A stretch of DNA of 64,000 nt from Siniperca chuatsi (taxonomy: Eukaryota): NCBI RefSeq assembly GCF_020085105.1, contig NC_058054.1:6995595-7059594 (forward strand). The letters run 5' to 3'. The position numbers were made by a program, and so were the translations under genes. The notes beneath the pieces were generated by a model. The model was not told the origin of the DNA, made no database searches, and worked only from the letters and a program-made list of their open reading frames with translations. Every line of letters begins with the position of its first letter. The stretch's first letter is position 1. This document shows positions 11,710 to 51,984 of the stretch, one piece after another.

Positions 11710-12505
11710 GTGAGTCTTCATGTTAGAAATGACAGACAGATCCTCCCCACGCACCCGCTGAAACTACATGAGTCACCATGACTAACATTAAAGCACGTGT
11801 GAGAGAAAATATCTGCAGCTCCGTAGGTGCAAGATAAGGTTCTTTAATTCTGAAATGAAAGAAAATAAGTAAGTAAGCTTTAACATGTTTTCTGCTTTCT
11901 CTTTTTATTGTGGATGTATCGGGGTGGCGGCCTGTGTGTAGTTGTCTCTTGTTTATATTTTTGTCTATACTTGTTCTAAAAGTTTGAAATAAATTACAAA
12001 AAACAATATAACAAAACCCATCACATGCCACTTATGCTGACCTGAATCGACGTAAACAAAATACTGTGTGTACCAACAGCATCATAAACAATACAAAACA
12101 TTTTCACACAGCTCGTCATGGCTGAATCCAAATAGAAAAGGTTCTGTAGAGTCTTTGCCAACACTACAGAAGCTGTAAAAAGATGAAGACTACCTGCTGC
12201 TGCTTGATTATTAGATGACAGAGACTCAACATCATTCCTACCGCCTCATTTCCTGCCTGCGCTCCATTTAACCGGGTTCACCAACCCTATGGGGGGGGGG
12301 GAAAGCAAATGGCAGACCAAATGGAGCACAGCCAGTATGATGCATGTTCCTTGTATGTCCGCCAATGTGCTCAAATGCTTTAATCCAGGAGGAGCAGAAG
12401 TTACAATATGACAGACATTGAAATATTTAAGCACATTTCCTTTTCTTGTAACCCATTTTCTGTGGAGCTTCGCTCTGTTTCTGACCGTTTTAATTCTTTT
12501 TTCAG

Positions 12506-12574
12506 GAGAATCTGTCGGCACAGAAACATCTTTCAGCCAGCAATGACAGTCTGTCTGAGGCTGCCAACACAAAG
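12506..12574 (+). CDS. A-type mini-exon 2: ENLSAQKHLSASNDSLSEAANTK
   Basis: ttttttcag acceptor and GTCAGT donor. 69 nt, phase 0. Confidence 0.65.
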
Positions 12575-13982: not shown

Positions 13983-14054
13983 GAGAAAGGAGATGCGTTT
14001 GGTGGAATATTCAAGAAGTCGTCCAGACTTGCACACAGCCCTCCCACAGAGGAA
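13983..14054 (+). CDS. B-type mini-exon 1: EKGDAFGGIFKKSSRLAHSPPTEE
   Basis: AG acceptor at 13981-13982 and GTAAGA donor. 72 nt, phase 0. Carries the GG.F.G.FKK motif. Confidence 0.55.
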
Positions 14055-14332
14055 GTAAGAAGTGTCTTCTTTGTTTTCTGGTCCTTTTCAGTCATCCCAT
14101 ATATCGCTAATATTCTTAAACAGCAAATCAGTGTTTTCAAATTGGATGTTACCAAAATGTCAGACTAGTACACTTGTGACTGGAAGGCTGCTGGTTTGAA
14201 TCCCAGAACCAACAGTAAAAGCATTAGCTGTAAAAGAGCAGTAGGTGGCTCAGTTACCCCTCGCTGTTAGTGATGAAATGTTAAAAAGTCTGTAGCGTGT
14301 AACAGGTTCTGATTGTTTTTATCTCTTCTCAG

Positions 14333-14383
14333 GACGATGAGCTCTCAAGCAGCAGTGAAGCTCTGTCTGAGGACAACACCAAG
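14333..14383 (+). CDS. A-type mini-exon 3: DDELSSSSEALSEDNTK
   Basis: tcttctcag acceptor and GTGAGG donor. 51 nt. Confidence 0.6.
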
Positions 14384-14472
14384 GTGAGGTTTTTTTATGC
14401 ATCATTTAGAAACGGCCCTGAATAACTTTACTTTCGGAGAGAGCACTCATTGTCTGAATATGTATGTTTTAG

Positions 14473-14544
14473 AAAAAAGGAGGAATATTTAGTGGAATAT
14501 TCAAGAAAACTCCCAAACCTGCAAAAGTTGCTCAACCTGAGGAG
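14473..14544 (+). CDS. B-type mini-exon 2: KKGGIFSGIFKKTPKPAKVAQPEE
   Basis: ttttag acceptor and GTAAAA donor. 72 nt. Confidence 0.65.
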
Positions 14545-15031
14545 GTAAAAGTATAATTTGTCTGTGTCATTTACAGCAATATCAACCTTCATATTTTTAT
14601 TTTCTTGGAAGTCTTTTATGATAATGTTTAAATTGTAAAAAGCCTCATTACCTGTTGGGTAGCAGGATATCTGACACTTGTCTTCCAGATTTCTGTTCAA
14701 ATTTGGTGGAAAATTAGGAATACAAACAAACAAGTGATTAGTTGTTGGTGCAGATTCAGTATTTATTTTGAAAGATTTCTTAACATTGTGCATTTTTGAA
14801 TGTTTTCACTATTTTCACATGAACTACTGCACTGAAAATCTGGCACATGTATCCCATGATTGTCTATTACTGTGTATACCATTGCAAAACCATGCTCAGA
14901 TGTTCATTAAATATTTTCTATTACTCATTTCTATTAATATTAATATTACTATACTATATTACTATTAATATAGTAACAGGTAACATTTATTTGTTACCAC
15001 AACTTTTACAACCTCTGATAATTTTTTACAG

Positions 15032-15091
15032 GACGAGTCTTCCGACAACGAGCTCTCAACCAGCAACGAGAATTTATCTGAGAACAAACAG
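15032..15091 (+). CDS. A-type mini-exon 4: DESSDNELSTSNENLSENKQ
   Basis: ttttttacag acceptor and GTCAGT donor. 60 nt. Confidence 0.6.
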
Positions 15092-15189
15092 GTCAGTGAG
15101 TTGAAATCCAAGATGATTAAATGCTTTTCAACAAAACAGCAGTTGGATTTGTAAATACAGTAAAGCCTTTTTATTGTGTATTTCATCAG

Positions 15190-15258
15190 GTGAAAGGTGG
15201 AGGGTTGTTCAGCGGACTCCTGAAAAAGACTCCCAAAGCGTCTGGGGAAAGGACACCG
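15190..15258 (+). CDS. B-type mini-exon 3: VKGGGLFSGLLKKTPKASGERTP
   Basis: cag acceptor and GTGAAT donor. 69 nt. Confidence 0.6.
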
Positions 15259-15347
15259 GTGAATGAGTGTTTCCTGGATGTGCAATGAGTTTCTAAGCCT
15301 GCACGCAATTTCACCCGTTTCATGTAACATAAATTTCTGTGTTTCAG

Positions 15348-15413
15348 GACAGGGAGGCTCAGAAAGAGCTGTCAGCCAGCAACGACGACCCGTCTGAGAA
15401 TAATACGACAAAG
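15348..15413 (+). CDS. A-type mini-exon 5: DREAQKELSASNDDPSENNTTK
   Basis: gtttcag acceptor and GTGAGC donor. 66 nt. Confidence 0.65.
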
Positions 15414-15495
15414 GTGAGCAGTATAATGCAGCAACACCTTAAAAATATAAAATGTCTTTCAAGGGAATGTTCATTGACACCAAATTATTTTCCAG

Positions 15496-15564
15496 GAGAA
15501 AAATATTTTTGGCAACATGTTTAAGAAGCCGCAGAAACCAGCAGAGGGCGCTGCAGCAGACAAG
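15496..15564 (+). CDS. B-type mini-exon 4: EKNIFGNMFKKPQKPAEGAAADK
   Basis: ttttccag acceptor and GTACTG donor. 69 nt. Confidence 0.6.
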
Positions 15565-15664
15565 GTACTGTGATTTGATGAAATTGATTAAATCAGTCTT
15601 TAAACTTCCTGTTATGGAGGATGGAGTAGATGTTGATATTTACTGTTTTCTGGTTTGAATTCAG

Positions 15665-15736
15665 GAGCTGGAGGTGAACAGTGAAAATCAGTTATTTGGT
15701 AGCTGTGAGAATCTGTTTGATACCACCGTCCCGAAG
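15665..15736 (+). CDS. A-type variant mini-exon 6: ELEVNSENQLFGSCENLFDTTVPK
   Basis: ttcag acceptor and GTACAT donor. 72 nt. Confidence 0.55.
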
Positions 15737-16171
15737 GTACATCACTCTTTTAAAAAGAAAACAACACAAAACAAAACCCCTCTTGTTCTTAATTTTTCTG
15801 TCTCAAGGTGGCTGCTGTTGTCATGTGAGCTGAAACCTGATCATGATGATATCTTTGTGTTTGTCCTGTCCTGTCATTGGTCCTGTTGTGCGTTGCATTT
15901 AGCTGCAATCAAATATGCATGTAATAAATAATAATCTTTGTTTGGAGGGCTGTTAGTTACAAAGTGCTTCACACAACAAAAGTAAATAAAAACAAAAATA
16001 ATAAAAAAATTGTTCCAGATGAAAATCAAAAAATGGTGTGAGCAGTGTCTGATTCACTGTGTGTGATTAACTTGGGAGCAGGTTTAGCTTTTGACTCTTG
16101 TTTCTCTTTAGTTTTTCTGTTGTTTCTGAATGTATTCATTGAAGAGAAATAACAAATATTTGTGTTTTTAG

Positions 16172-16237
16172 GAGAAAAAAGGAGGCCTGGCTGGCATCTT
16201 CAAAAGATCAGCCAGCATCGACAGCCTGTTTGACGAG
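16172..16237 (+). CDS. B-type mini-exon 5: EKKGGLAGIFKRSASIDSLFDE
   Basis: tttttag acceptor and GTCAGT donor. 66 nt. Confidence 0.6.
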
Positions 16238-16651
16238 GTCAGTGTCCGCCCCGCACACACTCAACGCAGCATCCTCCCTACAGTTTAAGGCACCACTAAG
16301 GAGACATCATTGTTACACATGACAAAAATAAGTTGCAGAATCTACAGCATGTTTGAAGACAGTACAACTTGATTTTTTTTTTATGGTGTGCTGAAATGAA
16401 CCCAGCGCCTGCCTGAAAGGTAGAAAATAAATCGACTGTATGCTTTGAAACATAATCGGCAAAAATGTATAAAGTGCAATTTGAGGTATGTTTCCTGGAT
16501 AAACCATCTTCTTTCAAGCCTTTTTTTGCACTCTTCACGAGCCAATCGAGAGAAGATTATCAACAAAATGTCCAACATTAAACTGTGTTAATGACCTTTT
16601 ATCTTTGGTTTCAAACTTTGCACTGCACTCATTTGCATTTTCACTCATCAG

Positions 16652-16723
16652 GAAAAAGGCGGGCTGTTCAGTGGACTTCTTAAGAAAACACCCAAAGTGT
16701 CTGGAGATGAGGCAGCTGCAGAA
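16652..16723 (+). CDS. B-type mini-exon 6: EKGGLFSGLLKKTPKVSGDEAAAE
   Basis: cag acceptor and GTGAGT donor. 72 nt. Confidence 0.65.
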
Positions 16724-16810
16724 GTGAGTGTGTGACTTAGTTACACTGTTGGCATCACTGTCTGTGGTGACTGTTGCATATTTATATATTGTCCATTTCT
16801 CTTTTTTCAG

Positions 16811-16876
16811 GACAAAGATGACCAGAAGGAACTGTCAGCAAGTAATGATAGTCTGTTTGAAAACAGCAACACTAAG
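16811..16876 (+). CDS. A-type mini-exon 7: DKDDQKELSASNDSLFENSNTK
   Basis: cttttttcag acceptor and GTGAAA donor. 66 nt. Confidence 0.65.
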
Positions 16877-17041
16877 GTGAAATGTTGGTTTTTGAACCAC
16901 GAAAGGAATTTCAACAAAATTTCAACATGCTCGTACTGTTCTTTGAATTTTACTGTCAGCTGTGACACATTACAGATACTCCTGATGTAGTTTTTACTGC
17001 CACTTATACAGATTGTGTCTGTGTCTAATGTCTGTTTTTAG

Positions 17042-17110
17042 GAGAAAGGTATTTTCAGTGGCATGTTTAAGAAGACTCATAAATCAGCAGAGGGGACTAC
17101 AACAGATGAG
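17042..17110 (+). CDS. B-type mini-exon 7: EKGIFSGMFKKTHKSAEGTTTDE
   Basis: tttttag acceptor and GTACAG donor. 69 nt. Confidence 0.6.
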
Positions 17111-17211
17111 GTACAGCAATGACCCTTTCACATAAAGTTCATAGTATATTATACCATTTGACTCTACTTTGTATCTGTCTTTGTCTTTTTTATGTTTTAT
17201 TTTATGTTCAG

Positions 17212-17283
17212 GAATTGAACACAGGCGAGGATAAGAAGTTATCGGCCAGTTGTGAAAATCTGTTAGAAGCAACCACGTCAAAG
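17212..17283 (+). CDS. A-type mini-exon 8: ELNTGEDKKLSASCENLLEATTSK
   Basis: ttcag acceptor and GTACAA donor. 72 nt. Confidence 0.6.
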
Positions 17284-17380
17284 GTACAAATGTTGTCCGA
17301 CGACCACAATCTCAGCCTGTTTTTCTCTGTTCTGCCACTGATTAATGACTATTAACGTGTGAATGTTTCTTATGTTTCAG

Positions 17381-17452
17381 GAGAAGACTGGAGGACTGGC
17401 AGGGATCTTCAAAAAGTCTCCGAAACCAGCTCCACGCTCGATCGCTACTAAG
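17381..17452 (+). CDS. B-type mini-exon 8: EKTGGLAGIFKKSPKPAPRSIATK
   Basis: tgtttcag acceptor and GTGACC donor. 72 nt. Confidence 0.6.
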
Positions 17453-17642
17453 GTGACCAAATAAACTAATTTTGTTTTGTTTTTTTGTGGTGATGTGTAT
17501 GGTTACCGGTTGTTGAGTTGTCTGTGAAATCTCTCATTTACATTTTTAAGCGAATCATATTGTGCTCAAATTCTTCAAAAATAACCTTCAACAAGTTAAA
17601 ACTAATTGATTTGCCTACAAAATGTTCCTTTTTGTTTTCCAG

Positions 17643-17705
17643 GATCCTCTCAGTGACACAAAGGAACTGTCCGCCAGCTGGGACAGCCTCACAGAAACTG
17701 CCGAG
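17643..17705 (+). CDS. A-type mini-exon 9: DPLSDTKELSASWDSLTETAE
   Basis: ttttccag acceptor and GTGAGA donor. 63 nt. Confidence 0.6.
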
Positions 17706-18206
17706 GTGAGAGCTTCTCGAAGTCTGTGGATGCACTTGGCAACTTGTTGAGCAACGCTGATGCTGTAGGCGACAGTGCCAGTGTACTTTCATGAGAATAT
17801 TGTTTTGCCAGCAAACATTTGAATAGTTTTGAGAGGATGACCCCTCTCAGAACACTATGCTAAGGTTGAAGGCTAAAAAACATATCTGCACACTTATATC
17901 CAATGATATTTTTTAATATTTAAGCCAAGCCAAGCTTTCTTCTTTCATGTTTGACAAAAAGGAATCTCAGAGCACTGGAGCAGTGTGCAGAGCCTTCCTT
18001 TCTCTAGATTATCTGCCAGAAAACATTTAAAATAGATTTGCAATGCCGTTATTTACAGTTTTATATTTACTTTTAAACATCTGAGTAGGTTTTTGATCCT
18101 GTGTTAAACTTTGTTGCCAGTTTATGAGAGGGTTCCCCAACAACCTCACCCAAAAGTTTCAGTAATAACACAATTCTTGTTTTGTTGTTTGTTTTTTATT
18201 TTAAAG

Positions 18207-18269
18207 GATGATCTTGGTGAATTGTCAACCAGTAACAATAATCTTTCTGAAGTTACAAGCACCACAAAG
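18207..18269 (+). CDS. A-type mini-exon 10: DDLGELSTSNNNLSEVTSTTK
   Basis: ttttaaag acceptor and GTGAGT donor. 63 nt. Confidence 0.55.
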
Positions 18270-18366
18270 GTGAGTCTTGTAGAGTGTATTATTCTGTTTG
18301 ATTGTATCAACATAGTTTTGCTGTTTTGTGACTTAAATGAATGCTTTATGTTTTAATTTTTAACAG

Positions 18367-18426
18367 GATAAAAAAGGAGGGTTTGCTGGAATTTTCAGGA
18401 GGACGCCCAAAACAGTTGAACACCAG
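18367..18426 (+). CDS. B-type mini-exon 9: DKKGGFAGIFRRTPKTVEHQ
   Basis: taacag acceptor and GTACGA donor. 60 nt. Confidence 0.6.
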
Positions 18427-19245
18427 GTACGATATCATCAGCAATGAGAGGTGTGAAGTGTATTTATCAACACTTTTTTGAATCGTACAATCAGTAGTAG
18501 TTGGAACAACATATCTAGTAGCAGTAACAGTAGTCATAGTGGTAGTAACCTACAGAGAAGTAGGGCTAATCAGGAATAGGGTTATCGATGTAGATTAATT
18601 TCTAATCTGTACATTTGTTGTCAAAGAAGCAACTGAAGATGCTCTAAATACATAAAGAACATATTTTGTGATTTGATTTGCATGTTATGGTATTTGGCAG
18701 TTTTTAGTTTTATGTGCTTTGTTGTCTCTGTGGTCAATACAAAATGACTTTTAGAAAAAACAAAAACAAATTTATAGTGCTAACTATAAGGGCACTCGGA
18801 GAGCACAGACCTTCGCCAAGGCCAATAGTCCAGTCTTCCATGATATGCAAATCTGCAAGCGCAACCACAATATATGGCTGGATATATTTCCAAAACTATT
18901 AGAATTGCAGCATGTCAAAATATGGTTGTGCCTCATCATCTTAACCCACAATTGACCTATCTCGCAATGTTAACGAAAGTGAAAAATAATTTAGTGTATC
19001 TGCCCCGTGATTCGGATCCGCTCCAAAATTTTATGGGATCTTCCTTAGCCCATGCTACACCCTTCCACATCGTTTTCCTGTAATCCTGCTGACAGACAAA
19101 CAAACGACACCGAAAACATGACCTCCTTGGTTCTTGAAGTAATAATGGGTATAGAGAGTTAGCATTGCGAGCAAGTTAGATGATCCCTATAAAATCCTGT
19201 ACAGCTGTTAAGCAATTATCTTTGCTATCTGTCTTCATTTGTGAG

Positions 19246-19308
19246 GACGTGGAGGCACCAGAAGGAGGTGGGCTGAGACGCAGGACAACCATCAAGAAAA
19301 AAACACGA
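19246..19308 (+). CDS. Candidate additional, degenerate B-like mini-exon: DVEAPEGGGLRRRTTIKKKTR
   Basis: AG acceptor after a pyrimidine-rich tract, strong GTGAGT donor at 19309. 63 nt, phase 0, no stops. The motif is only loosely B-like. Confidence 0.35.
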
Positions 19309-19518
19309 GTGAGTTGTTCACTTCAGAAACATCATGACAGAAGACAGAAAACCAAAGTGTATTTCAACATCTATACCACTAGGTGGTTTAGGTTACTTAT
19401 ACTGTATCCATACATGAGATTATTTTTCTCTTGCTTCTCCAGTTTGAGCTCTTACCTTTTGATGTTAAAGTCATCTTGTCATTGACAAACCTTTCTTGTT
19501 TCGTTTCAATGTTCTCAG

Positions 19519-19581
19519 GTTGTATCATTCCGAGTCAGAAAAACTCTTCCCAAAATACCCAAGCTTAATCTAACTTCACAG
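19519..19581 (+). CDS. Paralog B exon (63 nt, phase 0): VVSFRVRKTLPKIPKLNLTSQ
   Basis: ttctcag acceptor and GTATGT donor. Open frame. Confidence 0.45.
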
Positions 19582-19919
19582 GTATGTAATGATCTCCTCT
19601 AGTTGTTCCTCAGTTACTTCTCACTTTGCTGTTTTGCTCCTGTTCTTTAACTGCATTAACAAAGACCGATCTGAAATTTGGTATAGATATGGATATCAAC
19701 ATGCTGAACATTTTCCTTTTACATTTTTGATTGAATGGTTGTTGTCCTGAGTAATTTTTTGACACAGATACATGTTCTGTCTCTACAAATATGCATTGTC
19801 CTCTTTTAAATTCATATTTCCTTTAGTTGTTTACTGGTTTTATTATTGATGTGTGTTAAAGTTCTCCAATGAACTTATTACTAAGTTAATGACATTAATC
19901 GTCCTTTATTCCTCCATAG

Positions 19920-19982
19920 AGTTCAGACAAGATCCCTGTTTTTGAGGAGACTGTTGAGCTGCAGGATCTGAACCCAGCGCAG
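19920..19982 (+). CDS. Paralog B exon (63 nt, phase 0): SSDKIPVFEETVELQDLNPAQ
   Basis: tccatag acceptor and GTTAGC donor. Open frame. Confidence 0.45.
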
Positions 19983-20653
19983 GTTAGCATGATGATATTA
20001 TAAAATAGATATACAGGAAAAAAACATTTTAGTGGGGTTCACAAATGTCCAACCAAGCCTAAATCTTAACTAAAATTTATATATATATAAAACATCTTTT
20101 ACATTAATAAATTAATTAACTCACTAAATAAAACTGGAACAGTCTGAAGATTCAGATACACTTGTAAAAAGCGAAGAAATGTATAATACATGAAAATGGA
20201 AGTACGTTTTTAAAGCATTGCTGATATGAAAATGTTAAAAACACTGTGTAGTCATTTCAAATGTTTACAAACATAACATATCATGTTTATCATGTAATCA
20301 GACACTTGTGAGTTGTGGGAATCTGCAAATTAAAAAACCTCTGCTGCTCATAAGAGTCTCAGCCTGCGTAAAACAGTATAATAATTACATCATATCCTTA
20401 TAATATTATTAACTGTGTATTTCCTTTTGTGAAGCACAACCTTAGGTCACCACTCTACATCTGATTACAGGGAGAAAATAAACCCTTTTCTGTATGTGAT
20501 ACAGAACCATACAGACTGTCAACCGCTGAGAATCAGAATCTGTGTCCCTCTAACAGGCATACAGAGAGAATGGTAGTGACAGTAGTTACAGATACTAACC
20601 CTTTTAACTGAATTTTTTGTCACAAAGTTGTGTTATTGTGTTTGTTTTTCCAG

Positions 20654-20728
20654 GAGAGCACAGTGGAGGTCCAGCCTGTGAAGATGGCAGCTTACAATAC
20701 TGAAGACAACCCTCTTGAATCTGAGCAG
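20654..20728 (+). CDS. Paralog B exon (75 nt, phase 0): ESTVEVQPVKMAAYNTEDNPLESEQ
   Basis: tttttccag acceptor and GTGTGT donor. Same position as paralog A exon 495-572. Confidence 0.5.
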
Positions 20729-20738
20729 GTGTGTTTTT

Positions 20739-21819
20739 GGGTGCTTTCACACCTGTAGTTTGTCTCTTGGTCCGGATCGAATGAACCAAAGTGACACAAT
20801 ATTGCATTTTAGTTCTGGTCTGGTTCGTGTTCACACTGACTTTTTATAAACAAACCAAAAAGGAGTAAACACAAAGTTATACAGACTGACAGGTAACTCG
20901 TTGATTGGACAGTTTCGGTGATGGCATCCTGCATCATCAGTGCATCATCAGGACCCACGTGGGGAATTCAAATTCCTGTGACTGACAGAAGTTTATGCAG
21001 CAATTTAATGCTTCTGATGTGTATATTTATGTTCTTCGGTGTCACAAAGAGCTCATGAAGAAGTATCTGATTATGAGCATTATTAATATTATTGGACTGC
21101 AAATCGACCGCATGTTATGAATAATGACTTACAGGTAGATAAAGGACTAAAAAGAGGCATCTTGTACAGCAATATTCCAGGGGTAATTACTGTGGGATCA
21201 CTCTGTCACACACTTTTTAATGGACTTAATTAAGTAAATAATTAAGCACATGGAGTAGGATACAAACACAACACACCTGAGGTTTCCAGGTCCAGAAAGA
21301 AAGTTCCTTTGACAATAAATTAACACTTTCTACAGGGAGATAGTCCATGAGTGGCCTCTAAATGTTCAGAAATGGCTGATCATTACCTTTAAGCACAGAG
21401 CTGAGCCTTTCATGTGGTAATACATTAAAGATTTCTTTGTACCAGAAAGTAACAGTAGGAGGGGTTTCCTTGAACGTTTTTTACCAAATGATTTAAATGA
21501 ATATATACATGGCTTATACAGATCATTATCTCACTTATCAGATTGCTTCCTAAACAGTTCAGGACCAGTAGATGGATTTATTAGTAGTTTAGCTTTTGAA
21601 ATCATGCTAAAATCACATCCCTACTATCAAAAAGTCCTGTGGTTGGTCTGTTTGCTTTCAAACCACAAATTAATCGCACCAGAGTCTGCTTGGAGGGTCT
21701 CGGTCCGGTTGTTTGGTTCGAGCGACAGCTCTCACAGCAGCCCAAACGGCCGCACTAACCGGGCAGACGCACCATATTTCATTTTAACTGAACCAAACAG
21801 GTTAGTTGTGAAAGCACCC
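20739..21819. mobile_element. Non-autonomous DNA-transposon-like insertion in a paralog B intron, with about 13-15 bp terminal inverted repeats (GGGTGCTTTCACA ... TGTGAAAGCACCC)
   Basis: The inverted repeat sits at 20739-20753 and 21805-21819. No long ORF lies inside. Confidence 0.45.
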
Positions 21820-21919
21820 TTAGTGTTTGTGTGTGTGTAAGTGTGTTTGCATGTTTTACTACATATATGCAACCGATACTGTATGTTGTCTTTTCATTGA
21901 CGAAGGTCTCTGTTTTCAG

Positions 21920-21959
21920 GAAAGTGATGAGTTGATGGAGTGGTGGAACACCGTCAAAG
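21920..21959 (+). CDS. Paralog B exon (40 nt, ends phase 1): ESDELMEWWNTVK
   Basis: tgttttcag acceptor and GTCAGT donor. Paralogous to exon 694-733. Confidence 0.7.
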
Positions 21960-22062
21960 GTCAGTATGATTGTGTTCATCTTTAATCTTTAAGTTTGTTG
22001 TGCTGTTCCACCAGGAGAATTACCACTGATGCCAAAGAAAGTGTGGAAATCACACACTCACT

Positions 22063-22092
22063 CACACACACACACACACACACACACACAAA
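22063..22092. repeat. (CA)n microsatellite
   Basis: Perfect CA dinucleotide run. Confidence 0.95.
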
Positions 22093-22227
22093 TAAATAAA
22101 AATGTTTCTTTTAATGTAAAGTCCCAAAAAAAGATTCAATAAATCAGCACTAAAAACTAGAAACAAAACACTGTTTTATGTATTTGCTCCATATACTAAT
22201 TGTATTATTTCTGCTTCCGGTTTACAG

Positions 22228-22279
22228 GTTGGACGGACTGGAATGAGACATCCAATTTCCAGGAAGGGGATGAGGAAAT
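22228..22279 (+). CDS. Paralog B exon (52 nt): GWTDWNETSNFQEGDEE(M)
   Basis: tttacag acceptor and GTAAGT donor. Paralogous to exon 1403-1454. Confidence 0.7.
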
Positions 22280-22918
22280 GTAAGTTTATTTTCTTTAATA
22301 ACTTTTCATTCAAATTTACCCAGAAGATATTATTTTGGCATTCTGAGGACATTTTAGTGTGCAGGAGGCTGTTTAATCTTTTTTTTTTAGTCAGCACCAT
22401 CTGACCTGTCGCAAGTACTGTTGCTACTGCTATCTAAAGTAGCTAGGAAGCTCATTGATAATGGGCAAATGTAAAATAATTAAATGAATCAATCATTTTT
22501 AATTGGTTAACTCCATCCATCCATTTTCTGCTTCTTATCCAGATCCAGGTTGTGTTAATATAGTTAATTATAGCATTAGAAATTATTGTTATATACTGCT
22601 GGGAACGAAGTACTGAAAAAAATGTGATATAATAATGAATAATTTTGGGTCATAACGTCCCTGCTAGTTTTCCATCGTACTTTCAAGCTTTGGCCAATAT
22701 GACTGAAACAGGTATTAAACTGGTTTATTGGTGAACTCTGCAGAATCCCTGTTATCCAGTATTTGTCAACATTCGGGTTCAAATGATAAATGTAAATATT
22801 TTAAGAGCCCATGTTTTGCTGGGTCCACACACATGCACGTAGGAAATAGCTATTTCTTAGACTTACAAGCATTTAACTTTAAACTTAACAAATACACCAT
22901 CCATCCACCATTCTCCAG

Positions 22919-23333
22919 GGCGATGGAGCAGGCAGCTGATCGTGTCTACATGGCAGCTCGTCTGTTTGTGCATCTTTTCAACCAGCGGGGGGCGTCCTTA
23001 CAGCATCGCATCCTGGAGCTTTTGGCTCTGGCCGACGCTGCAGATCAATTCCACAAAAGAACAGTGACAGCTGCTGTGGGTGGAGGGGTGGCCAGTGTTG
23101 CAGGCAGCGTGGCAACAATCACAGGGCTCATTCTGGCGCCTTTCACTTTTGGTGCCTCTATTATTGTCACAGCGGTGGGGATTGGCGTGGCGACAGCGGG
23201 CAACATCACGGCAGCGACAGCCAATATCACAGATACAGTTCACTCCAGCATGGACCGCAAGAAGGTGGAGAAGATGATCCAGAGCTATCAGGAGGAGATC
23301 AAAGACATCAGAGAGTGTTTGGAGTTCGTACAG
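22919..23333 (+). CDS. Paralog B exon, first half of the ApoL domain: AMEQAADRVYMAARLFVHLFNQRGASLQHRILELLALADAADQFHKRTVTAAVGGGVASVAGSVATITGLILAPFTFGASIIVTAVGIGVATAGNITAATANITDTVHSSMDRKKVEKMIQSYQEEIKDIRECLEFVQ
   Basis: ttctccag acceptor. The frame carries over from the previous exon (at + g gives atg). GTGAGG donor at 23334. Homologous to paralog A residues AFAVTADKVQ...FIKQ. Confidence 0.8.
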
Positions 23334-24192
23334 GTGAGGAAATGTTTGATTTGAGTTTGTAGCTGAATCTCACATAGGCTTTGCAGATGTGTCTACAGAC
23401 TTATTACTGCTGGTGACATTATACAGGTTCACTGGAGACATAGTAATGCAAAAATACTGTAACTAGACCAGAACTAGAGATTCCTGAAAAAAATGTGGTT
23501 GCTTTGTAGATTAATCTGTAAAAAAAAATTCCAATGTAGTAACAAGAAATGTTTGAAGTAATGTAGAAAGTGTTGCACTGTTACTGCTCGGTATGTATTT
23601 TAGTCACAGTTCTTTCGAAAAATAAATTCAAGGGATTCCTATCCTATGTCCCTAAAATGTTTGTGTTTATGTAAAAAATAATACTGGCCAATATTGTAAC
23701 TCTCAAGTATTAGCATTTTTATATCTGCCTCCAGTATAGAAATCTAGTATTGATCGGGCTGTGACTGCTTTTGAGTTTAGCTTGAGAAGAGCTCAGTTGG
23801 CTTAATCGTTAAACCAGTAGGTGTGTTTTTGTATTGTTAGCTAGCTAACTAGACATTAAGATAGTTTAGTTAGCTAGTAAATACATTTTTATTTGACATG
23901 GACATCACAATAGTAATGGAATTGCATAGAGATGCATTGGGTGTGAGAATGACTTTGTGTAGCAATAATGGAAAACACCTGTCGTCGGGTAATTAACGAA
24001 AGTAACTGATGTCAATATCGAAATGATAGTAGCCACCGCTAAAGCTAGGTTTTACTACATGTAGGCTAAGTAAGGAAGGAAATGTGCATCAAAAATGAGT
24101 TTGGGATTACATATGTGAATAGTTTTAAAATCACGGGAAAACCTTGAACCTTTAGTAGTGTCCTCCTTTTTTTGTCTCTGTGCCACTTGTAG

Positions 24193-25977
24193 GACGGTAT
24201 GGACACCCTGCAGGAGTGGGACTTTGAGAAATACTCAGAGAGTGCTGCCAAAAAGGCTCTGAACCACAACCTCAAGCATGTGATGAAGGAGGGCGGCCGT
24301 GCCGGAAAAGCCTTGATGATCAACACCGATAAGCTCATCAGCACTGTGCAGGTTTTAGGCGCTGCAGGCGGAGCCGCCAGAGCTGCCCAGGCCATCAGCG
24401 TCACCACAGGTGTCATGTCGGCCCTCTTTCTCGCTCTGGATGTTTTCTTCCTCGCCAAAGACTCCCACGAGCTCCACAAGGGCGCCAAAACTAAGTTTGC
24501 CACCAAGATCAGGGACGTATGTAAAGAACTTCAAGAAGGCCTCCTGGAGCTGAACAAGGTGAAGACACAGCTGCAGAAGACCATGGACGGCATTGAGGTG
24601 GAGGAGTACGAGGAGATTGAGGAGGTAGAAGTGGAAGTTGACGACGATTTGGAGTCGGATCCAAAGAAGCTGGCTGAGCTGGAGCAGGAGCTGGACCTCC
24701 TGGAGGAGAAACTGGACAAGAAGGTCGAGGAGGAAGAGCAGAAGAAGATTAAAGAGATGGAGAAAGAAAATTTGAAAAGAAAGAAGGAGAAAAAGGAGGA
24801 GAAGAGCATGAAGGAAAAAGGAGAGCCAGAGGAAAAGAAGGAGAAGGAGGAAACAGGAGAAAAGGATGCTAAGAACGAGGGAAAAAAGGAAAGTAAGAAG
24901 GGAGGAAGTGAGGGAGAAAGCAAGGTTGAGTCAAAATTAGAGAAGATTTCTGATGAGGAAAAAGAGCAGAACAATGAGACAGTCAAAGCAGCCAAAGAGG
25001 AAGTTTTAAATGAACAATCTCAGAAACAGAAGAAGGACAAAGAAACTGAGAACCGAATTACAGCTGGAAAAGAAATATATGAGAGCAAGCAAGACAAGGC
25101 AAAAGAAGACATTAGTACAAATAGAAAGGCAGACGAAAAGGAAAAAGAGAAAAATAAGACTGGAAAAGAACACAAGGAAATTAAGAGCAGATCAGACGAT
25201 TCAAAACGAGAGGACCGGAGTGGAAAAGCATATTCTGAGAGGGTCAAAACAGAGAGAGAAAGCGAAAGGAGTAAGAGCAGCAGAGAGGATGAAAGAGTGA
25301 TGAATAAAGAGAAAGAGGCAGAAAGTGGGAGTGCAAGGAGGCACAGCAGCAGGAGTGACAAAGATAGACCCCACAGACGTGAAAGAGGGAGCAAACACGA
25401 AAATAAAGAAACCGAGAGATGCAGCAGCAGAGACAGAAAACAAAGTGACAGGAGGGAGAGCAAGAGGAGGACAGAGGAGGACAGAGGAGTGAGGGACTGG
25501 AGAGCAGAGATGGCAAAAAGTAGAGACGAGAAGAGAGAGAGCAAGGAAGGAAGAGAATCTAAGAGAGAGACAGAGAGAGGGACAGAAAGGGAACATCATG
25601 GAAAAAGCAACGTGAGCAAAGAGTCACATCGAAGCCACGAAACGGCGACGAGGAGGAAGCATTCGGAAAGAGAGTGGGGGAGCAGCAGGGAGGAATCTGA
25701 CTCGAATAGGAGTCACCACAGGAGAGGAACAGCCCCGCATGATGACCGGAGGGAGAGAGCAGATGAGAAACGAGGGAGCAGGATTGAGAGGGCAAAGAGG
25801 CAGTTTGAGAGAGCAGGGGGTGAGGAGGAGGAGGACAGGGGGAAGAGGAAAGAGGATGGACAGAGTCAGGGGAGGGACAGAGAGAGGAGAGGAAGTGATA
25901 GAGGCAGAGAGCACCACAGCCACCGAGGAGCTCGACCACGATCCAACGCGCTGCTGGAAGACGGACTGAATATTTAA
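24193..25977 (+). CDS. Paralog B terminal exon: second half of the ApoL domain (..VMSALFLALDVFFLAKDSHELHKGAKTKFATKIRDVCKELQEGLLELNKVKTQL..), then an open low-complexity tail of about 480 codons (K/E-rich, then R/S/E/D-rich) to TAA at 25975-25977
   Basis: ttgtag acceptor in frame. This matches the 592-aa ORF in the track. The homology to paralog A stops at about codon 130 of this exon. The tail is only weakly supported, because the GA-rich sequence is open in several frames on both strands. Confidence 0.7.
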   Translation, partial: DGMDTLQEWDFEKYSESAAKKALNHNLKHVMKEGGRAGKALMINTDKLISTVQVLGAAGGAARAAQAISVTTGVMSALFLALDVFFLAKDSHELHKGAKTKFATKIRDVCKELQEGLLELNKVKTQLQKTMDGIEVEEYEEIEEVEVEVDDDLESDPKKLAELEQELDLLEEKLDKKVEEEEQKKIKEMEKENLKRKKEKKEEKSMKEKGEPEEKKEKEETGEKDAKNEGKKESKKGGSEGESKVESKLEKISDEEKEQNNETVKAAKEEVLNEQSQKQKKDKETENRITAGKEIYESKQDKAKEDISTNRKADEKEKEKNKTGKEHKEIKSRSDDSKREDRSGKAYSERVKTERESERSKSSREDERVMNKEKEAESGSARRHSSRSDKDRPHRRERGSKHENKETERCSSRDRKQSDRRESKRRTEEDRGVRDWRAEMAKSRDEKRESKEGRESKRETERGTEREHHGKSNVSKESHRSHETATRRKHSEREWGSSREESDSNRSHHRRGTAPHDDRRERADEKRGSRIERAKRQFERAGGEEEEDRGKRKEDGQSQGRDRERRGSDRGREHHSHRGARPRSNALLEDGLNI

Positions 25978-28900
25978 TTTTAAAGATGTTATCTTTTACA
26001 TTTCTAATGTGTTCTATGTTTGGATTATTTTAAGTCCAACTTGAATTTGACTGCATGATGATGGAGACCTTATTTTTTCCAATACAGCCAATCAAATCTT
26101 GCATAAAGCAGTAACATCATCAGTCCTATCGTAGGCAGAGTTGCTACACAACACAAGAATTAGCACAACACATTAGCTTTACTGCTAAATTCTCCTTACA
26201 GACTTCTTATCCTGCACATTTGCTGCTAACGTCAGTTTGCAGGATAGATAGCTAATTAGCTGCGGCACATTAAACAGCATGTAAACATACCTGCATATGT
26301 CACTTGGGTCTGGTGAGATGCTGTTGTGGTTCTTACTCTTCAATACCACTAACAACAAGCTGTCTGCTCATGACATGTAGGCTACAGAGAGCCGAGTTTG
26401 TTTACTTTGTCACCGACACTCTCAGACCGTTTTTTTTTTTTCCTTTTAACAATACAAAACAATACATTTAAAAAACACGTTATCATTATTTTTTACTACA
26501 AAAAAGGATGACTAAATGTGATTTCAGTTTGACTTTAACACAATACTCGTACAAAATTTCCTTTTTGCGTTTTCCTTGACAGTGTTTCCTTGCCGAGCTG
26601 CACCGGAGGGAAATTGCACACTTGTATTTGTCCGTCTTATGGGGAGTGAATATTCGTATATAAGAGAAGTTTAATCTGGTCTGACCGTGGTGAAAAAGTT
26701 TCTCACAGCAGATACTTTGACTTGTGAAATACAGGTTTAACTAATAATATTATTATTTAATGCACTGGACTGCAATAATTGCTGGAATGGAGCCATCATT
26801 ATTGTTATCAGCACCTGTCTGTGCTTTTCCTGCTAAGTCAAATGTCTGCTGTGAAAAAGGAAGGTGAATCTGAGGCGAGGCTATCAAGATTCAAGTTTGT
26901 GAGATTTACTCAGAAACAAAATGTAAAGTAGGACAGACTTTTGACAGGGAAGAAAGGCAAGAACAGACCAGTTTTTCCATTTCCAAAGTATGAAGAAGCC
27001 TGTCTTCACTTTGGATTTCTATCTCTTGAGTCCACTGTGAATCTAGCAAGAGAACTTTGTGTGCAAAAAGTTTAGACTGTTTTTTTGACAGAAACTAATG
27101 AAAAACATTTGTTAATATTAAAGTATGACAGCCTCACATTAGCTTCAGCTGAACTTTGGAAGAGGACTGCACTTTGTTTTCCATCTCTTACACTGTGGTT
27201 GCACTACAAAGGTTATCTCTTCACGGCCGAAGAGAACAAAGACCCCTTGTGTAGAAATGTTATGTGATTATGGCCTCTTTCTAATTAAATATCTGCTATT
27301 GTAAAGTATTTGTTTGTCGAAAGCTGAAGTACTACCACTAGGAGTCGCCAAAGTTAGACATTTTCAAATCTTGTACATACAGTAGGAGCTCTAACATCTG
27401 CCTCCTAGCTGCTTTGTAAAAATGCTTTTTGCCACAGTATCTTTAAAGAAATCTACAAAGCAGATTTCCTGCTAAATCTGAACTGAATGCAAATGATGTA
27501 AAATACAGAGTAGAGGTTGCTAGTATTTTGTTAATGCCTCATGATAATTATTTATTGATATTGTGATAAACATAACATCTTTTAAATATATATTTAAAAC
27601 CTTAACCTGTGTTTCTGAAACATGTTCTGGTGATTCAGGTTAAAACTAGACGACCCCCCTACTGTTTAAGTCCGTATTGTGCCTTTGCATACTGTGTGTG
27701 TATGGTGTGTTTAGTGCACCTGTGTTTTTTATTTCACTGAAAAGGCCAGTCTGTGTGTGAACATGCTCAGGAGAAACAGGGAATCTTTTCATGCAGTCTT
27801 TTTATTTAAGGCAGGACAAAAACTTGTTGTGGGAAATGTACCAGGATGACAGAATAATAATGACTTATTAAAATCATGTGGTACAGTTCATTTTCACTCA
27901 GTGCACTTTAACCAGGCGTTGCCTCCTTCATGTCTGTGCTCAAGTTTTATGTCACTGATTGATGTTTCTGGAATATTGTACAATGGTACACTTTGTCTGT
28001 AGTTATCACTGTTGTCTGATATTTTATATGTTCACTGTACTGTATTTTTGTGCTGGTTTATTACTGAACAAATAAATAGAGTTGGAATGTGATGCTGTTT
28101 ACAACACTTTGCATATCTATTTCATAGACAGGTGTGTAGGAGAGGGACGAGTGGATCAAAAAATACAAATAAACACCTTCACACTGTCCAACTAACTGCA
28201 ATAATACATTTGTTTGCAACGTTTCGGTCCTATACCTTCATCGGGCAAATGGTTTGTAACAATGAGAAGCCATCTTAAATAGGGAGTGGCTGTAAAAATA
28301 ATGGGTGAATGGTCGAAACATACAGCTTCTGACACTCCAATTGGTAGCAGTACAAATGCAAACTGGACCAAACTGGCCTAAACATTGTGGCTTCAATTGC
28401 ATGAACAAGTTATTTTTTATCCACTTTTATATAATTAATAGTGTTACTTAGGAAGATGATAGGTGGGACAATGAAAGGGTACTTGTGACAGGGCTGTGGG
28501 GAAACATCAGATAAACAAGTTTGGGAACTACTGGTCTGATAAATTGTCTTTGTAACACAACTTAATAGTAGCTTTAATATTTTAAATAATGGCTCATTTT
28601 ATGCCCTGTGCTTTGACACATTTAACTTGTGTCTTTTGCTTTTGTTAATTATCGTCTGTAAATACCAGTGGTTGCATGTAACTAAGTACATTTAATCATT
28701 TACTGTACTTAGGTACAATTTTTAGGTGCTTTACTTGAGTATTACCACACTTTATACTTGACTACATTTATTTCACAGCTTCTGTTACTTTGTATGTTAA
28801 GATTTTACCTACAAATATTGACTTGATATCAACTTCAACATAAAATATGATGCACTGTTACAAATTAAACTACCAAAGAGTAAAGTAGTTTACCAAAGTA

Positions 28901-51558: not shown

Positions 51559-51984
<426 letters not shown>

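What the first reader, a model, noticed from the sequence alone, without database searches (positions are those of the whole stretch)
24540..25977. About 480-codon open purine-rich tail appended to the ApoL domain. It may be a real charged low-complexity C-terminus or a non-coding GA-rich tract.
Homology with paralog A ends near 24600, and paralog A stops about 60 codons later. In paralog B the frame stays open for 1.4 kb. It first reads as E/K-rich sequence (EEEQKKIKEMEKENLKRKKEKKEEK...) and then as an R/S/E/D/H-rich segment resembling RS- or RD/RE-repeat domains (RSDKDRPHRRERGSKHENKETERCSSRDRKQSDRRESKRR...). The region is so purine-rich that several frames on both strands are also open, as the track ORFs 24531-24995(-), 25020-25544(-) and 25010-25300(+) show. 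Openness alone is therefore weak evidence. If it is translated, it adds a highly charged and probably disordered nucleic-acid-binding or phase-separating tail to a pore-forming domain, which is an unusual combination. If it is not, the true C-terminus needs an unrecognised donor.
Basis: partly seen in the sequence, partly recalled or inferred. Interest (0 to 1): 0.5.

Follow-up and report, generated by a model that had tools for sequence, protein, structure and literature searches.

The report
Conserved charged tail of fish ApoL gene
The 1.4-kb purine-rich stretch is real coding sequence: it is the disordered, highly charged C-terminal tail of a teleost "apold1a"-type ApoL-domain protein. The tail is conserved in frame across teleosts and already predicted in many annotated genomes, but nobody has studied its function.

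Summary
Window 24538-25974 is 479 stop-free codons in frame with the ApoL exon that begins at 24193.

The open frame is not a side effect of purine richness. None of 2000 dinucleotide shuffles was stop-free, and the other five frames carry 4-40 stops.

The tail is translated sequence of the last exon of a ~16-kb, many-exon gene (about 10117-25977, + strand).
- Seven orthologous DNAs keep the same single frame open to a homologous stop.
- All 41 indels in frame-blind DNA alignments with four species are multiples of three.
- Third codon positions diverge fastest.
- dN/dS is 0.25-0.45.
- Three intron-less contigs, inferred to be cDNA, join 23333 to 24193 and read through the tail into the 3'UTR.
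- All 15 listed Micropterus isoforms keep the same 441-residue tail.

The tail has four parts:
- an acidic stretch;
- a conserved helix (DPKKLAELEQELDLLEEKLDKK...);
- an E/K-rich segment;
- an R/E/S/D/H mixed-charge segment with conserved islands (RRHSSRS, RDWRAEM, EKRGSRIE..FERAGGEE, ERRGSDR) and an L/F-x-I C-terminus present in all 41 sequences chosen for a related ending.

It is not an RS domain. The architecture is standard for this unstudied teleost family, so the finding is ordinary at annotation level. Its function is inferred only.

The parts
10117..22280 (+). N-terminal part of the same gene. It is roughly 20 mini-exons encoding alternating 'ELSASxxSLSE' and '(E/K)KGG(L/I)FSGLLKKTPK' peptides, followed by the 'LMEWWNTVKGW' and 'DWNETSNFQEGDEEM' exons.
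   Evidence: tblastn of Micropterus salmoides isoform X1 (P0134) against the window gives collinear hits from 10117 to 22280. Exon boundaries in this part were not refined.
22919..23333 (+). Penultimate coding exon. It encodes the N-terminal half of the ApoL domain, including the Gly/Ala/Val-rich hydrophobic hairpin (VGGGVASVAGSVATITGLILAPFTFGASIIVTAVGIGVATAG).
   Evidence: Pfam PF05461 ApoL, E = 1.9e-23. Acceptor AG lies at 22917-18 and donor GT at 23334-35. It is 95% identical to Micropterus. The contigs L001, L002 and L003 start and stop matching at these limits.
23334..24192 (+). Phase-0 intron (GT...AG) between the two ApoL exons.
   Evidence: Read from the sequence. It is absent from contigs L001, L002 and L003, which join 23333 to 24193. 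It shows no codon-position signal (p = 0.64).
24193..24582 (+). First part of the last exon. It encodes the C-terminal half of the ApoL domain: a hydrophobic helix (AISVTTGVMSALFLALDVFFLAKDS) and a leucine-heptad helix (KIRDVCKELQEGLLELNKVKTQLQKT). Homology with paralog A ends here.
   Evidence: Pfam ApoL, E = 1e-9, reaching model position 297 of 298. BLASTP with paralog A gives 46% identity and ends at ...QLQKT. dN/dS is 0.07-0.33.
24583..24660 (+). Acidic stretch MDGIEVEEYEEIEEVEVEVDDDLES. Its first third is nearly invariant across teleosts.
   Evidence: Most positions are 70-99% identical to the window residue across 40 orthologues, falling to about 40-50% in the DDDL stretch. It is also present in zebrafish, eel and salmonid proteins.
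24661..24801 (+). Predicted long alpha-helix: DPKKLAELEQELDLLEEKLDKK followed by the E/K-rich VEEEEQKKIKEMEKENLKRKKEKK.
   Evidence: AlphaFold2 helix at residues 294-340 of the joined protein. It is the only stretch with 10-residue block means of pLDDT at 60-76. The first 22 residues are 60-99% conserved. dN/dS of 24568-24720 is 0.08-0.21.
24727..25227 (+). E/K-rich segment, last-exon aa 179-345. Fraction of charged residues is 0.61 and net charge is 0. It tolerates indels and has moderately conserved islands (EEKEQ..ETVKAAKEEVL.EQSQK.KKDKE.EN).
   Evidence: Composition and conservation. dN/dS is 0.28-0.57; dN is below dS at p between 3e-8 and 0.015 in four of five pairs, and at p = 0.08 against L001. 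AF2 pLDDT is below 50 with no secondary structure beyond 24801.
25228..25974 (+). R/E/S/D/H mixed-charge segment, aa 346-594. Fraction of charged residues is 0.54 and net charge is +15, with 14 His. Conserved islands: RRHSSRSDKD (25336-25365), DRGVRDWRAEMAK (25480-25518), RSHHRRGTAPHD (25705-25740), EKRGSRIERAKRQFERAGGEE (25765-25827) and ERRGSDR (25882-25902).
   Evidence: Composition and dipeptide counts; island conservation. dN/dS is 0.22-0.60, with dN below dS at p between 1e-11 and 0.014. phmmer against 1.84 billion representatives found 10 proteins. The match lies at the extreme C-terminus of all nine full-length ones; the tenth is a 95-aa fragment matched over nearly its whole length. 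All nine carry ApoL by Pfam (precomputed or scanned). AF2 predicts disorder.
25951..25977 (+). Conserved C-terminus LLEDGLNI plus the TAA stop (25975-25977). The last three residues fit hydrophobic-x-Ile.
   Evidence: All 41 aligned sequences (the window plus 40 orthologues) end L/F-x-I: LNI 18, LYI 16, LDI 4, FYI 2 and LHI 1. These sequences were chosen partly for a related ending, so the count is not an independent test. Eel and bonefish proteins, outside that set, end PLSI. The stop lies at the homologous place in 6 of the 7 other species' DNAs; L002 (salmonid-like) ends in a divergent ...CQFYI.
25978..27651 (+). 3'UTR, at least in part. Patches at 26834-26931 and 27458-27651 match the 3'UTR of contig L001. 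Candidate poly(A) signals are ATTAAA at 27867 and AATAAA at 28071.
   Evidence: blastn of L001 against the window, and a poly(A)-signal scan. The true 3' end in this species was not determined.
2032..2949 (+). Paralog A: a short ApoL gene without the tail, used as the comparator. A 'LMEWWNTVE' mini-exon lies at 691-732.
   Evidence: ORF, BLASTP and tblastn.

Best explanation
Window 24538-25974 is translated sequence. It is the 3' three-quarters of the last coding exon (24193-25977) of a teleost 'apold1a'-type gene that spans about 10117-25977 on the + strand.

The exon first finishes the ApoL domain, with a hydrophobic helix and a leucine-heptad helix. It then encodes a ~465-residue C-terminal extension made of four parts:
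1. an acidic stretch;
2. a conserved amphipathic helix that continues into an E/K-rich helix;
3. an E/K-rich polyampholyte spacer;
4. an Arg-rich mixed-charge region ending in ...LLEDGLNI.

Shown here:
- the frame is conserved;
- the tail is under purifying selection, weaker than on the domain;
- orthologous transcripts are continuous through it;
- it occurs only in this family.

Inferred, not shown: the ApoL hairpins anchor the protein in a membrane, and the tail lies in the cytosol as an intrinsically disordered tether or scaffold. Its charged bulk would act as a flexible, length-tolerant spacer. Its conserved islands would be short linear motifs. Three of them centre on basophilic-kinase consensus sites (RRHS, KRGS, RRGS). 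One is a Trp-containing motif (RDWRAEM). The free C-terminus (hydrophobic-x-Ile) would dock a partner such as a class II PDZ-type domain.

I put the tail being coding at about 0.95. I put the scaffold / linear-motif mechanism at about 0.35. The confidence value given for this explanation (0.9) refers to the coding-tail claim.
For: Open frame:
- 0 stops in 479 codons, against 12 and 40 in the other forward frames and 4-8 in the reverse frames. None of 2000 dinucleotide shuffles was stop-free.
- Only this frame is stop-free in all eight species compared.

Orthologue DNA:
- tblastn gives one single-frame HSP over the whole last exon in 7 orthologous DNAs. Four are genomes (Micropterus salmoides, M. 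dolomieu, Cottoperca gobio, Etheostoma cragini) and three are Logan contigs.
- Frame-blind MAFFT DNA alignments of the window with M. salmoides, Cottoperca, Etheostoma and L001 contain 41 indels, all multiples of 3.
- Mismatch rate is highest at codon position 3, for example 0.134/0.103/0.270 against Cottoperca.
- NG86 dN/dS of the tail is 0.25-0.45. dN is below dS by Fisher test, at p down to 1e-13 for aa 179-500.
- Codon-position composition signal has p = 5e-12 in the tail, against 0.6 in the intron and the 3' flank.

Transcripts and isoforms:
- Contigs L001, L002 and L003 lack the window's introns, join 23333|24193 and continue through the tail; L001 and L003 also carry about 0.6-1 kb of 3'UTR.
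- All 15 listed Micropterus isoforms carry the same 441-residue tail, identical within each species; they differ only in the N-terminal part.

Conservation and specificity:
- Conserved islands are seen across 40 teleost orthologues, and all of them end L/F-x-I.
- Eel, bonefish and salmonid proteins share the architecture.
- The tail has no Pfam domain and no PDB relative.
- All detectable relatives among 1.84 billion proteins are C-termini of ApoL proteins.

Structure:
- AF2 gives a helix at 294-340 and no structure from 341 to 731.
Against: - There is no RNA-seq, ribosome-profiling or proteomic data from the window's own species.
- That the Logan contigs are cDNA is inferred from their lack of introns, not from run metadata.
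- dN/dS was computed on protein-guided alignments of low-complexity sequence. This can understate dN. The pairwise comparisons are also not independent.
- Trinucleotide-periodic purine repeats could by themselves favour 3n indels.
- Cyprinid models have only a 41-74-residue tail, so most of the tail is dispensable in some lineages.
- The AF2 model has low confidence overall (mean pLDDT 42, even in the ApoL domain). 'Disordered' is therefore suggestive only.
- Membrane topology, phosphorylation and PDZ binding are untested inferences.
- Donor-like GTAAGA sites exist inside the tail, with the exon ending at 24892 or 25270. Minor isoforms that splice out part of the tail cannot be excluded.
Confidence: 0.9

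Rival explanations
1. The GA-rich tract is non-coding (3'UTR or intron), open only because it lacks T. The real protein would end through an unrecognised splice donor near 24.56-24.7 kb.
For: T content is only 9.5%, and long ORFs also appear in other frames. A donor-like AAG|GTGAAG lies at 24558|24559 (sequence), and GTAAGA sites lie with the exon ending at 24892 and 25270. Some database models end early, for example P0103 at ...LNKVKTQLQRHG and apold1b-type models at ...KKLAQLEE.
Against: None of 2000 shuffles was stop-free. Only this frame is open in 8 species. All 41 indels are multiples of 3. dN is significantly below dS. The C-terminal motif is conserved, and the stop is homologous in six of the seven other species' DNAs. 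Three intron-less contigs read through the tail. No listed Micropterus isoform removes it.
Confidence: 0.03
2. The distal tail is an RS-like or arginine-rich mixed-charge domain. It would bind RNA or partition into condensates, as in nuclear-speckle proteins, giving a membrane-anchored ApoL protein a phase-separating or nucleic-acid-binding module.
For: Fraction of charged residues is 0.54, net charge is +15, and there are 26 RE/ER and 12 RD/DR dipeptides in 249 aa. AF2 predicts disorder. Arg-enriched mixed-charge domains drive speckle condensation in other proteins (bioRxiv 10.1101/771592; PMC9324279).
Against: There are only 11 RS/SR dipeptides and no RS runs, so it is not an SR-type RS domain. 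The protein carries hydrophobic ApoL hairpins and should be tied to a membrane. No RNA-binding domain was found. Conservation is concentrated in discrete motifs rather than in charge pattern alone. Cyprinid orthologues lack the region.
Confidence: 0.15
3. The tail is translated but largely functionless. On this view it is a tolerated, drifting low-complexity expansion created by replication slippage in a purine-rich exon, and only the proximal helix and the last few residues matter.
For: There are large lineage-specific deletions: 62 codons are missing in L001, 81 and 51 nt are missing in Etheostoma, and most of the tail is missing in cyprinids. dN/dS is higher than in the ApoL domain. Several short internal repeats are present.
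Against: dN/dS stays well below 1 in both the E/K and the R-rich segments. Several internal islands are conserved from salmonid-like to percomorph sequences (ERGV(R/K)DWRAEM, EKRGS..E....FE). Tandem Repeats Finder finds only a few ~2-copy repeats, not an expanding array. The tail persists from elopomorphs to percomorphs.
Confidence: 0.2

Closest known systems
Predicted teleost 'apold1a' proteins, e.g. Micropterus salmoides XP_038573382.1 ('titin homolog isoform X3') and Cottoperca gobio LOC115022310
   Same: They are collinear with the window gene over the whole length: N-terminal mini-exon repeats, the MEWWNTVKGW motif, the ApoL domain, the same phase-0 exon junction, the acidic/helix/E-K/R-rich tail, and the ...LLEDGLNI end. 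Identity over the last exon is 74-76%.
   Different: They differ only by species-level divergence: nucleotide identity is 83-86% in the tail, with 3n indels. No identical protein was found in the collection, so the window's species or allele is not represented there.
Mammalian APOLD1 / VERGE, an endothelial early-response ApoL-domain protein found at cell junctions and Weibel-Palade bodies (PMC9973481; PMC11726835)
   Same: Both have an ApoL-type hydrophobic hairpin plus a C-terminal hydrophobic and leucine-zipper helix pair. Database sources give the fish gene the name apold1a.
   Different: From my own knowledge, mammalian APOLD1 is a small protein (about 280 aa) with neither the ~490-aa N-terminal repeat region nor the ~465-aa charged tail. 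Orthology was not tested here, and the name comes from the sources only.
Paralog A in the same window (2032-2949) and cyprinid or apold1b-type proteins
   Same: Paralog A is 46% identical across the ApoL domain up to the leucine-heptad helix. Both paralogs share the upstream MEWWNTV motif.
   Different: Paralog A ends 39 codons after the homology stops. Cyprinid tails are 41-74 aa, and apold1b-type models end within the conserved helix. None of these has the E/K and R-rich segments.
Arginine-enriched mixed-charge domains of nuclear-speckle proteins (bioRxiv 10.1101/771592; PMC9324279)
   Same: Both show a high fraction of charged residues, intermixed Arg and Asp/Glu, and predicted disorder.
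   Different: The tail here is attached to a membrane-hairpin protein. It is richer in Lys, Ser and His, and its charge pattern is irregular rather than RD/RE dipeptide repeats. Localisation is unknown.
Mouse APOL6 'specific C-terminal region', which inhibits lipolysis at lipid droplets (as summarised in PMC11726835)
   Same: It is a precedent for an ApoL-family member gaining function through a lineage-specific C-terminal extension beyond the shared domain.
   Different: No sequence similarity was detected. The parallel is one of principle only.

Membership tests
ApoL domain family (Pfam PF05461) | Significant match to the ApoL profile above the gathering score | tested here: met
   Exon 22919-23333 scores 83.8 bits (E = 1.9e-23). 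The last exon scores 38.7 bits (E = 1e-9). The cutoff is 25.9 bits. Together they cover model positions 47-171 and 222-297 of 298.
ApoL domain family (Pfam PF05461) | Membrane insertion, pore formation or membrane-fusion activity of the hairpin | not testable with these tools
   Only the hydrophobic Gly/Ala/Val-rich hairpin sequence can be read. The AF2 model of the domain has low confidence.
Teleost apold1a orthologue group (long-tailed) | Collinear similarity through the tail, in one frame, to a homologous stop | tested here: met
   Single-frame tblastn HSPs cover query aa 1-2 to 595 in six of seven loci and aa 1-589 in L002. The tail is found only in ApoL-positive proteins.
Teleost apold1a orthologue group (long-tailed) | Conserved exon junction (..EFVQ | xGMDTL..) and C-terminal DGL-x-I | tested here: met
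   The junction 23333|24193 is reproduced in three intron-less contigs. D/E-G-L-x-I is present in 36 of 41 sequences, and L/F-x-I in all 41.
Mammalian APOLD1 (VERGE) orthology | Reciprocal best similarity and conserved synteny with tetrapod APOLD1 | not tested
   Only the names given by the sources ('apold1a') are available. No tetrapod sequence or synteny was examined.
SR-protein RS domain | Dense, mostly consecutive Arg-Ser / Ser-Arg dipeptides | tested here: not met
   There are 5 RS and 6 SR dipeptides in 249 aa, with no runs. RE/ER number 26 and RD/DR number 12.
Arginine-enriched mixed-charge domain (R-MCD) | Long disordered stretch dominated by intermixed Arg and acidic residues | tested here: inconclusive
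   Fraction of charged residues is 0.54, K+R is 75, D+E is 60, and AF2 predicts disorder. However, Lys, Ser and His are abundant and the charge pattern is irregular. No formal criterion was applied.
Arginine-enriched mixed-charge domain (R-MCD) | Condensation or nuclear-speckle targeting | not testable with these tools
   This needs cell imaging or in-vitro phase-separation assays.
ER/K single alpha-helix (SAH) | At least 30-40 uninterrupted residues of E/K(R) alternation, predicted as an isolated stable helix | tested here: inconclusive
   AF2 places one helix at residues 294-340, with block-mean pLDDT of 60-76. Its second half (VEEEEQKKIKEMEKENLKRKKEKK) is E/K-rich. The rest of the E/K segment contains Gly, Pro and Ser and is not predicted helical.
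Class II PDZ-binding C-terminus | Free C-terminus of the form hydrophobic-x-hydrophobic | tested here: met
   L-N-I in the window and L/F-x-I in all 41 aligned sequences (chosen partly for that ending); eel and bonefish proteins outside the set end L-S-I. This is a pattern match only.
Class II PDZ-binding C-terminus | Actual binding to a PDZ domain | not testable with these tools
   This needs peptide-array or pull-down experiments.

The most novel reading that the evidence does not exclude
This teleost ApoL protein could be a membrane-anchored scaffold. Its ancient ~465-residue mixed-charge tail would work as a phospho-regulated tether or condensate-forming module. Conserved RRxS/T sites, a Trp motif and an L-x-I C-terminus would link ApoL-shaped membranes, such as junctions or secretory granules, to cytoskeletal or PDZ partners. 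That function would have no counterpart in the short mammalian APOLD1.
Probability: 0.2. Interest if true: 0.55.

Novelty: already known. Interest (0 to 1): 0.25.

Why it matters
For the scan, this settles an annotation question. The purine-rich 1.4 kb is CDS, not UTR or intron, and no hidden donor needs to be found.

Biologically, it points to a whole teleost gene family that has no literature. Full-text searches for 'apold1a' and 'si:rp71-1g18.13' returned nothing. In this family an ApoL membrane-hairpin domain sits between a repetitive N-terminal region and a long conserved disordered tail.

Automatic names such as 'titin homolog', 'myb-like protein X' and 'neurofilament medium polypeptide' are artefacts of low-complexity matching and hide the relationship between these genes.

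If the conserved islands are real docking or phosphorylation sites, they give concrete handles for studying ApoL-family function in fish. The natural short-tailed cyprinid versions would serve as a comparison.

Tried and rejected
- Pfam scan of the last exon found only ApoL and nothing in the tail, down to E = 0.1.
- PDB sequence search with the tail found no hits at E <= 0.01.
- Literature searches for 'apold1a' and 'rp71-1g18.13' returned 0 papers. Searches combining APOLD1 with zebrafish, and apolipoprotein L with teleost, returned nothing about the fish tail.
- Exact-product look-ups of P0001 and P0019 were not on record. The longest isoforms, P0134 and P0132, worked instead.
- AlphaFold2 on a 35-sequence alignment gave mean pLDDT 42 and pTM 0.25. 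That is too poor for a fold search, so none was run. Only the helix call and the disordered call are used, with caution.
- Tandem Repeats Finder found a few ~2-copy short repeats. The tail is therefore not a simple tandem array.
- The antisense and alternative-frame ORFs were considered as possible genes. They were rejected because every such frame carries stops in all eight species.
- The DNA alignment with the more distant L003 gave non-3n gaps (14, 37, 10, 29). I take these to be alignment artefacts at 69% identity. The L003 frame is nonetheless open throughout, and tblastn gives one HSP.
- Orthology to mammalian APOLD1 was not tested. The window's species was not identified.
Full report
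**What is there.** The window is teleost genomic DNA. The finding lies in the last coding exon of a multi-exon gene on the + strand. That exon starts at the acceptor AG|G at 24193 and runs open to TAA at 25975-25977. The preceding exon (22919-23333, donor GT at 23334) and the first 130 codons of the last exon both match Pfam ApoL (PF05461) above threshold, at 83.8 and 38.7 bits (acceptor read). The two exons join in phase 0 (...EFVQ|DGMDTL...).

tblastn with a full-length Micropterus orthologue places about 25 collinear exons between 10117 and 25974. The 'tail' is therefore the 3' end of a gene of about 16 kb. Paralog A (2032-2949) is a shorter ApoL gene. BLASTP homology between the paralogs (46% identity) ends at ...QLQKT, which is window 24582, and paralog A stops 39 codons later.

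**Checking the observation.**
- From 24538 to 25974 there are 479 codons with no stop. The sequence is 78% purine and 9.5% T.
That is not so. The other two forward frames have 12 and 40 stops and the reverse frames have 6, 4 and 8.
- Dinucleotide shuffles average 17.5 stops per frame, and none of 2000 was stop-free.
- Base composition differs by codon position in the tail (p = 5e-12) and in each of its three sub-segments. It does not differ in the adjacent intron or the 3' flank (p about 0.6).

**Is it coding? Comparative evidence.** A protein search returned 495 homologues. The best are teleost proteins of 650-1280 aa that carry ApoL and a long charged C-terminus. Automatic names include 'titin homolog', 'myb-like protein X', 'neurofilament medium polypeptide' and 'apold1a'. 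I fetched orthologous DNA from four genomes and three short Logan contigs. The genomes are Micropterus salmoides, M. dolomieu, Cottoperca gobio and Etheostoma cragini.

- In all seven, tblastn gives one single-frame HSP across the entire last exon; in six it reaches a homologous stop, while L002's last residues diverge.
- Only that frame is stop-free in all eight sequences.
- In frame-blind MAFFT DNA alignments of the window tail with M. salmoides, Cottoperca, Etheostoma and L001, all 41 indels are multiples of three.
- Mismatches are most frequent at third positions.
- Pairwise NG86 dN/dS for the tail is 0.25-0.45, against 0.07-0.33 for the ApoL part. dN is below dS by Fisher test for the E/K and R-rich segments separately, in nearly every pair.

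There are caveats. The alignments are protein-guided, the sequence is low-complexity, and the pairs are not independent.

**Transcript evidence, in orthologues only.** The three Logan contigs are collinear with the window's exons but lack its introns. Each joins 23333 to 24193 and then runs uninterrupted through the tail to the stop; L001 and L003 carry a further 0.6-1 kb of 3'UTR. Two 3'UTR patches of L001 match window 26834-26931 and 27458-27651. I infer that these contigs are cDNA-derived because they lack introns. I did not see run metadata.

Fifteen of the 27 RefSeq isoforms clustered from the two Micropterus species were listed, and all 15 carry the same 441-residue tail (identical within each species, a handful of substitutions between them). 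The isoforms differ only in the N-terminal mini-exons. Donor-like sites do exist in the tail: AAG|GTGAAG at 24558|24559, and GTAAGA with the exon ending at 24892 or 25270. Minor spliced isoforms in this species cannot be excluded.

**Anatomy of the tail.** Coordinates below are last-exon amino acids and window nucleotides.
1. aa 131-156 (24583-24660): acidic MDGIEVEEYEEIEEVEVEVDDDLES.
2. aa 157-203 (24661-24801): DPKKLAELEQELDLLEEKLDKK followed by an E/K-rich run. AlphaFold2 predicts one helix here, and it is the only stretch with block-mean pLDDT of 60-76. Parts 1 and 2 are mostly 60-99% identical across 40 orthologues (the acidic DDDL stretch falls to about 40-50%). They also occur in zebrafish, eel, bonefish and salmonid proteins.
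3. aa 179-345 (24727-25227): E/K-rich, with a fraction of charged residues of 0.61 and net charge 0.
4. aa 346-594 (25228-25974): R/E/S/D/H-rich, with a fraction of charged residues of 0.54, net charge +15 and 14 His.

AF2 gives no secondary structure and pLDDT below 50 beyond residue 340 of the joined protein. The whole model is poor (mean pLDDT 42), so this is only suggestive of disorder.

Part 4 contains conserved islands:
- RRHSSRSDKD (25336-25365);
- DRGVRDWRAEMAK (25480-25518);
- RSHHRRGTAPHD (25705-25740);
- EKRGSRIERAKRQFERAGGEE (25765-25827);
- ERRGSDR (25882-25902);
- the C-terminus LLEDGLNI (25951-25974).

All 41 aligned sequences end L/F-x-I, though they were selected partly for a related ending. 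Eel and bonefish proteins, outside that set, end PLSI. Between the islands, lineage-specific 3n deletions are common. For example, 62 codons are missing in L001. Cyprinid models keep only 41-74 residues after the ApoL domain.

**Specificity.** The tail has no Pfam domain and no PDB relative. phmmer of the R-rich segment against 1.84 billion representatives found only 10 proteins. The match lies at the extreme C-terminus of all nine full-length ones; the tenth is a 95-aa fragment. All nine carry ApoL by Pfam, precomputed or scanned here. The tail is therefore a family-specific invention that is old within teleosts, not a borrowed domain.

**What it is not.** It is not an SR-type RS domain. It has 11 RS/SR dipeptides in 249 aa, against 26 RE/ER and 12 RD/DR. 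In composition it resembles arginine-enriched mixed-charge domains (bioRxiv 10.1101/771592; PMC9324279). Whether it behaves like them is untested. It is not a tandem-repeat array. The antisense and off-frame ORFs are by-products of composition.

**Most likely mechanism (inference).** ApoL-family proteins are built around a hydrophobic hairpin flanked by amphipathic helices, with a C-terminal hydrophobic and leucine-zipper pair. APOLD1 localises to endothelial junctions and Weibel-Palade bodies (PMC11726835; PMC9973481). In this protein the hairpins would anchor it in a membrane. The two long hydrophilic extensions contain no further hydrophobic segments, so they would lie in the cytosol.

The pattern of conserved islands embedded in a fast-evolving, indel-tolerant charged matrix is typical of disordered tethers that carry short linear motifs. 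Three islands centre on R-R/K-x-S/T basophilic-kinase consensus sites, one contains an invariant-looking Trp, and the free C-terminus fits a class II PDZ-type ligand. I therefore favour a phospho-regulated scaffold or tether. I hold this at about 0.35. I hold the coding status at about 0.95.

**Comparison and novelty.** The gene is an orthologue of proteins already predicted in dozens of fish genomes, with 74-76% identity over the last exon to Micropterus and Cottoperca. At annotation level the tail is therefore already known. No paper in the searchable library mentions apold1a or its zebrafish clone name, so functionally it is unexplored. Orthology to mammalian APOLD1 rests on source names only and was not tested. 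From my own knowledge, mammalian APOLD1 is short and lacks both extensions.

**Verdict.** The 'real C-terminus' reading is supported. The 'non-coding tract' and 'RS domain' readings are not supported. This is an ordinary, already-annotated feature with modest residual interest as an unstudied, conserved disordered tail.

Noticed in passing
window 10117-22280 (+), especially 14327-18420: The N-terminal half of the same gene is a chain of about 20 mini-exons. They alternate 'ELSASxxSLSE'-type and '(E/K)KGG(L/I)FSGLLKKTPK'-type peptides. All isoform variation seen in Micropterus lies in this region. The repeated basic, amphipathic peptide has no assigned function.
   Followed up: partly
window 691-732 and 2032-2949 (+): Paralog A is a second, short ApoL gene upstream. 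Its ApoL domain is encoded without the intron that splits paralog B. It shares the 'LMEWWNTV' mini-exon motif and has no long tail.
   Followed up: partly
window 32036-32557 (+): An ORF with a GIY-YIG nuclease domain (Pfam E = 7.7e-7). It is probably a remnant of a Penelope-like retroelement.
   Followed up: partly
window 38933-39619 (-): A 228-aa ORF with an ALKBH8_N-type Pfam hit. From my own knowledge, it looks like the C-terminal part of a LINE reverse-transcriptase ORF, so probably a transposon fragment.
   Followed up: partly
window 51556-51984 (-): An exon encoding an RRM domain (Pfam E = 3.4e-13) that resembles hnRNP C or RALY. It belongs to a neighbouring gene on the opposite strand.
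   Followed up: partly
window 37965-38252 (+): An ORF that looks like part of a DOMON-type extracellular domain. One Chanos chanos model (P0068) fuses ApoL with PF03351 DOMON, which suggests that a DOMON gene is the conserved downstream neighbour. Pfam gave no hit for this fragment.
   Followed up: partly
window 25993-26833: About 840 nt of the presumed 3'UTR have no counterpart in contig L001, where only about 58 nt separate the flanking matches. This may be a lineage-specific insertion.
   Followed up: no
P0075-P0096 (cyprinid orthologues), compared with window 24727-25974: Cypriniform proteins, including zebrafish, end 41-74 residues after the ApoL domain. Eels, salmonids and percomorphs keep tails of 100-480 residues. 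This looks like a secondary loss or truncation and offers a natural experiment.
   Followed up: partly
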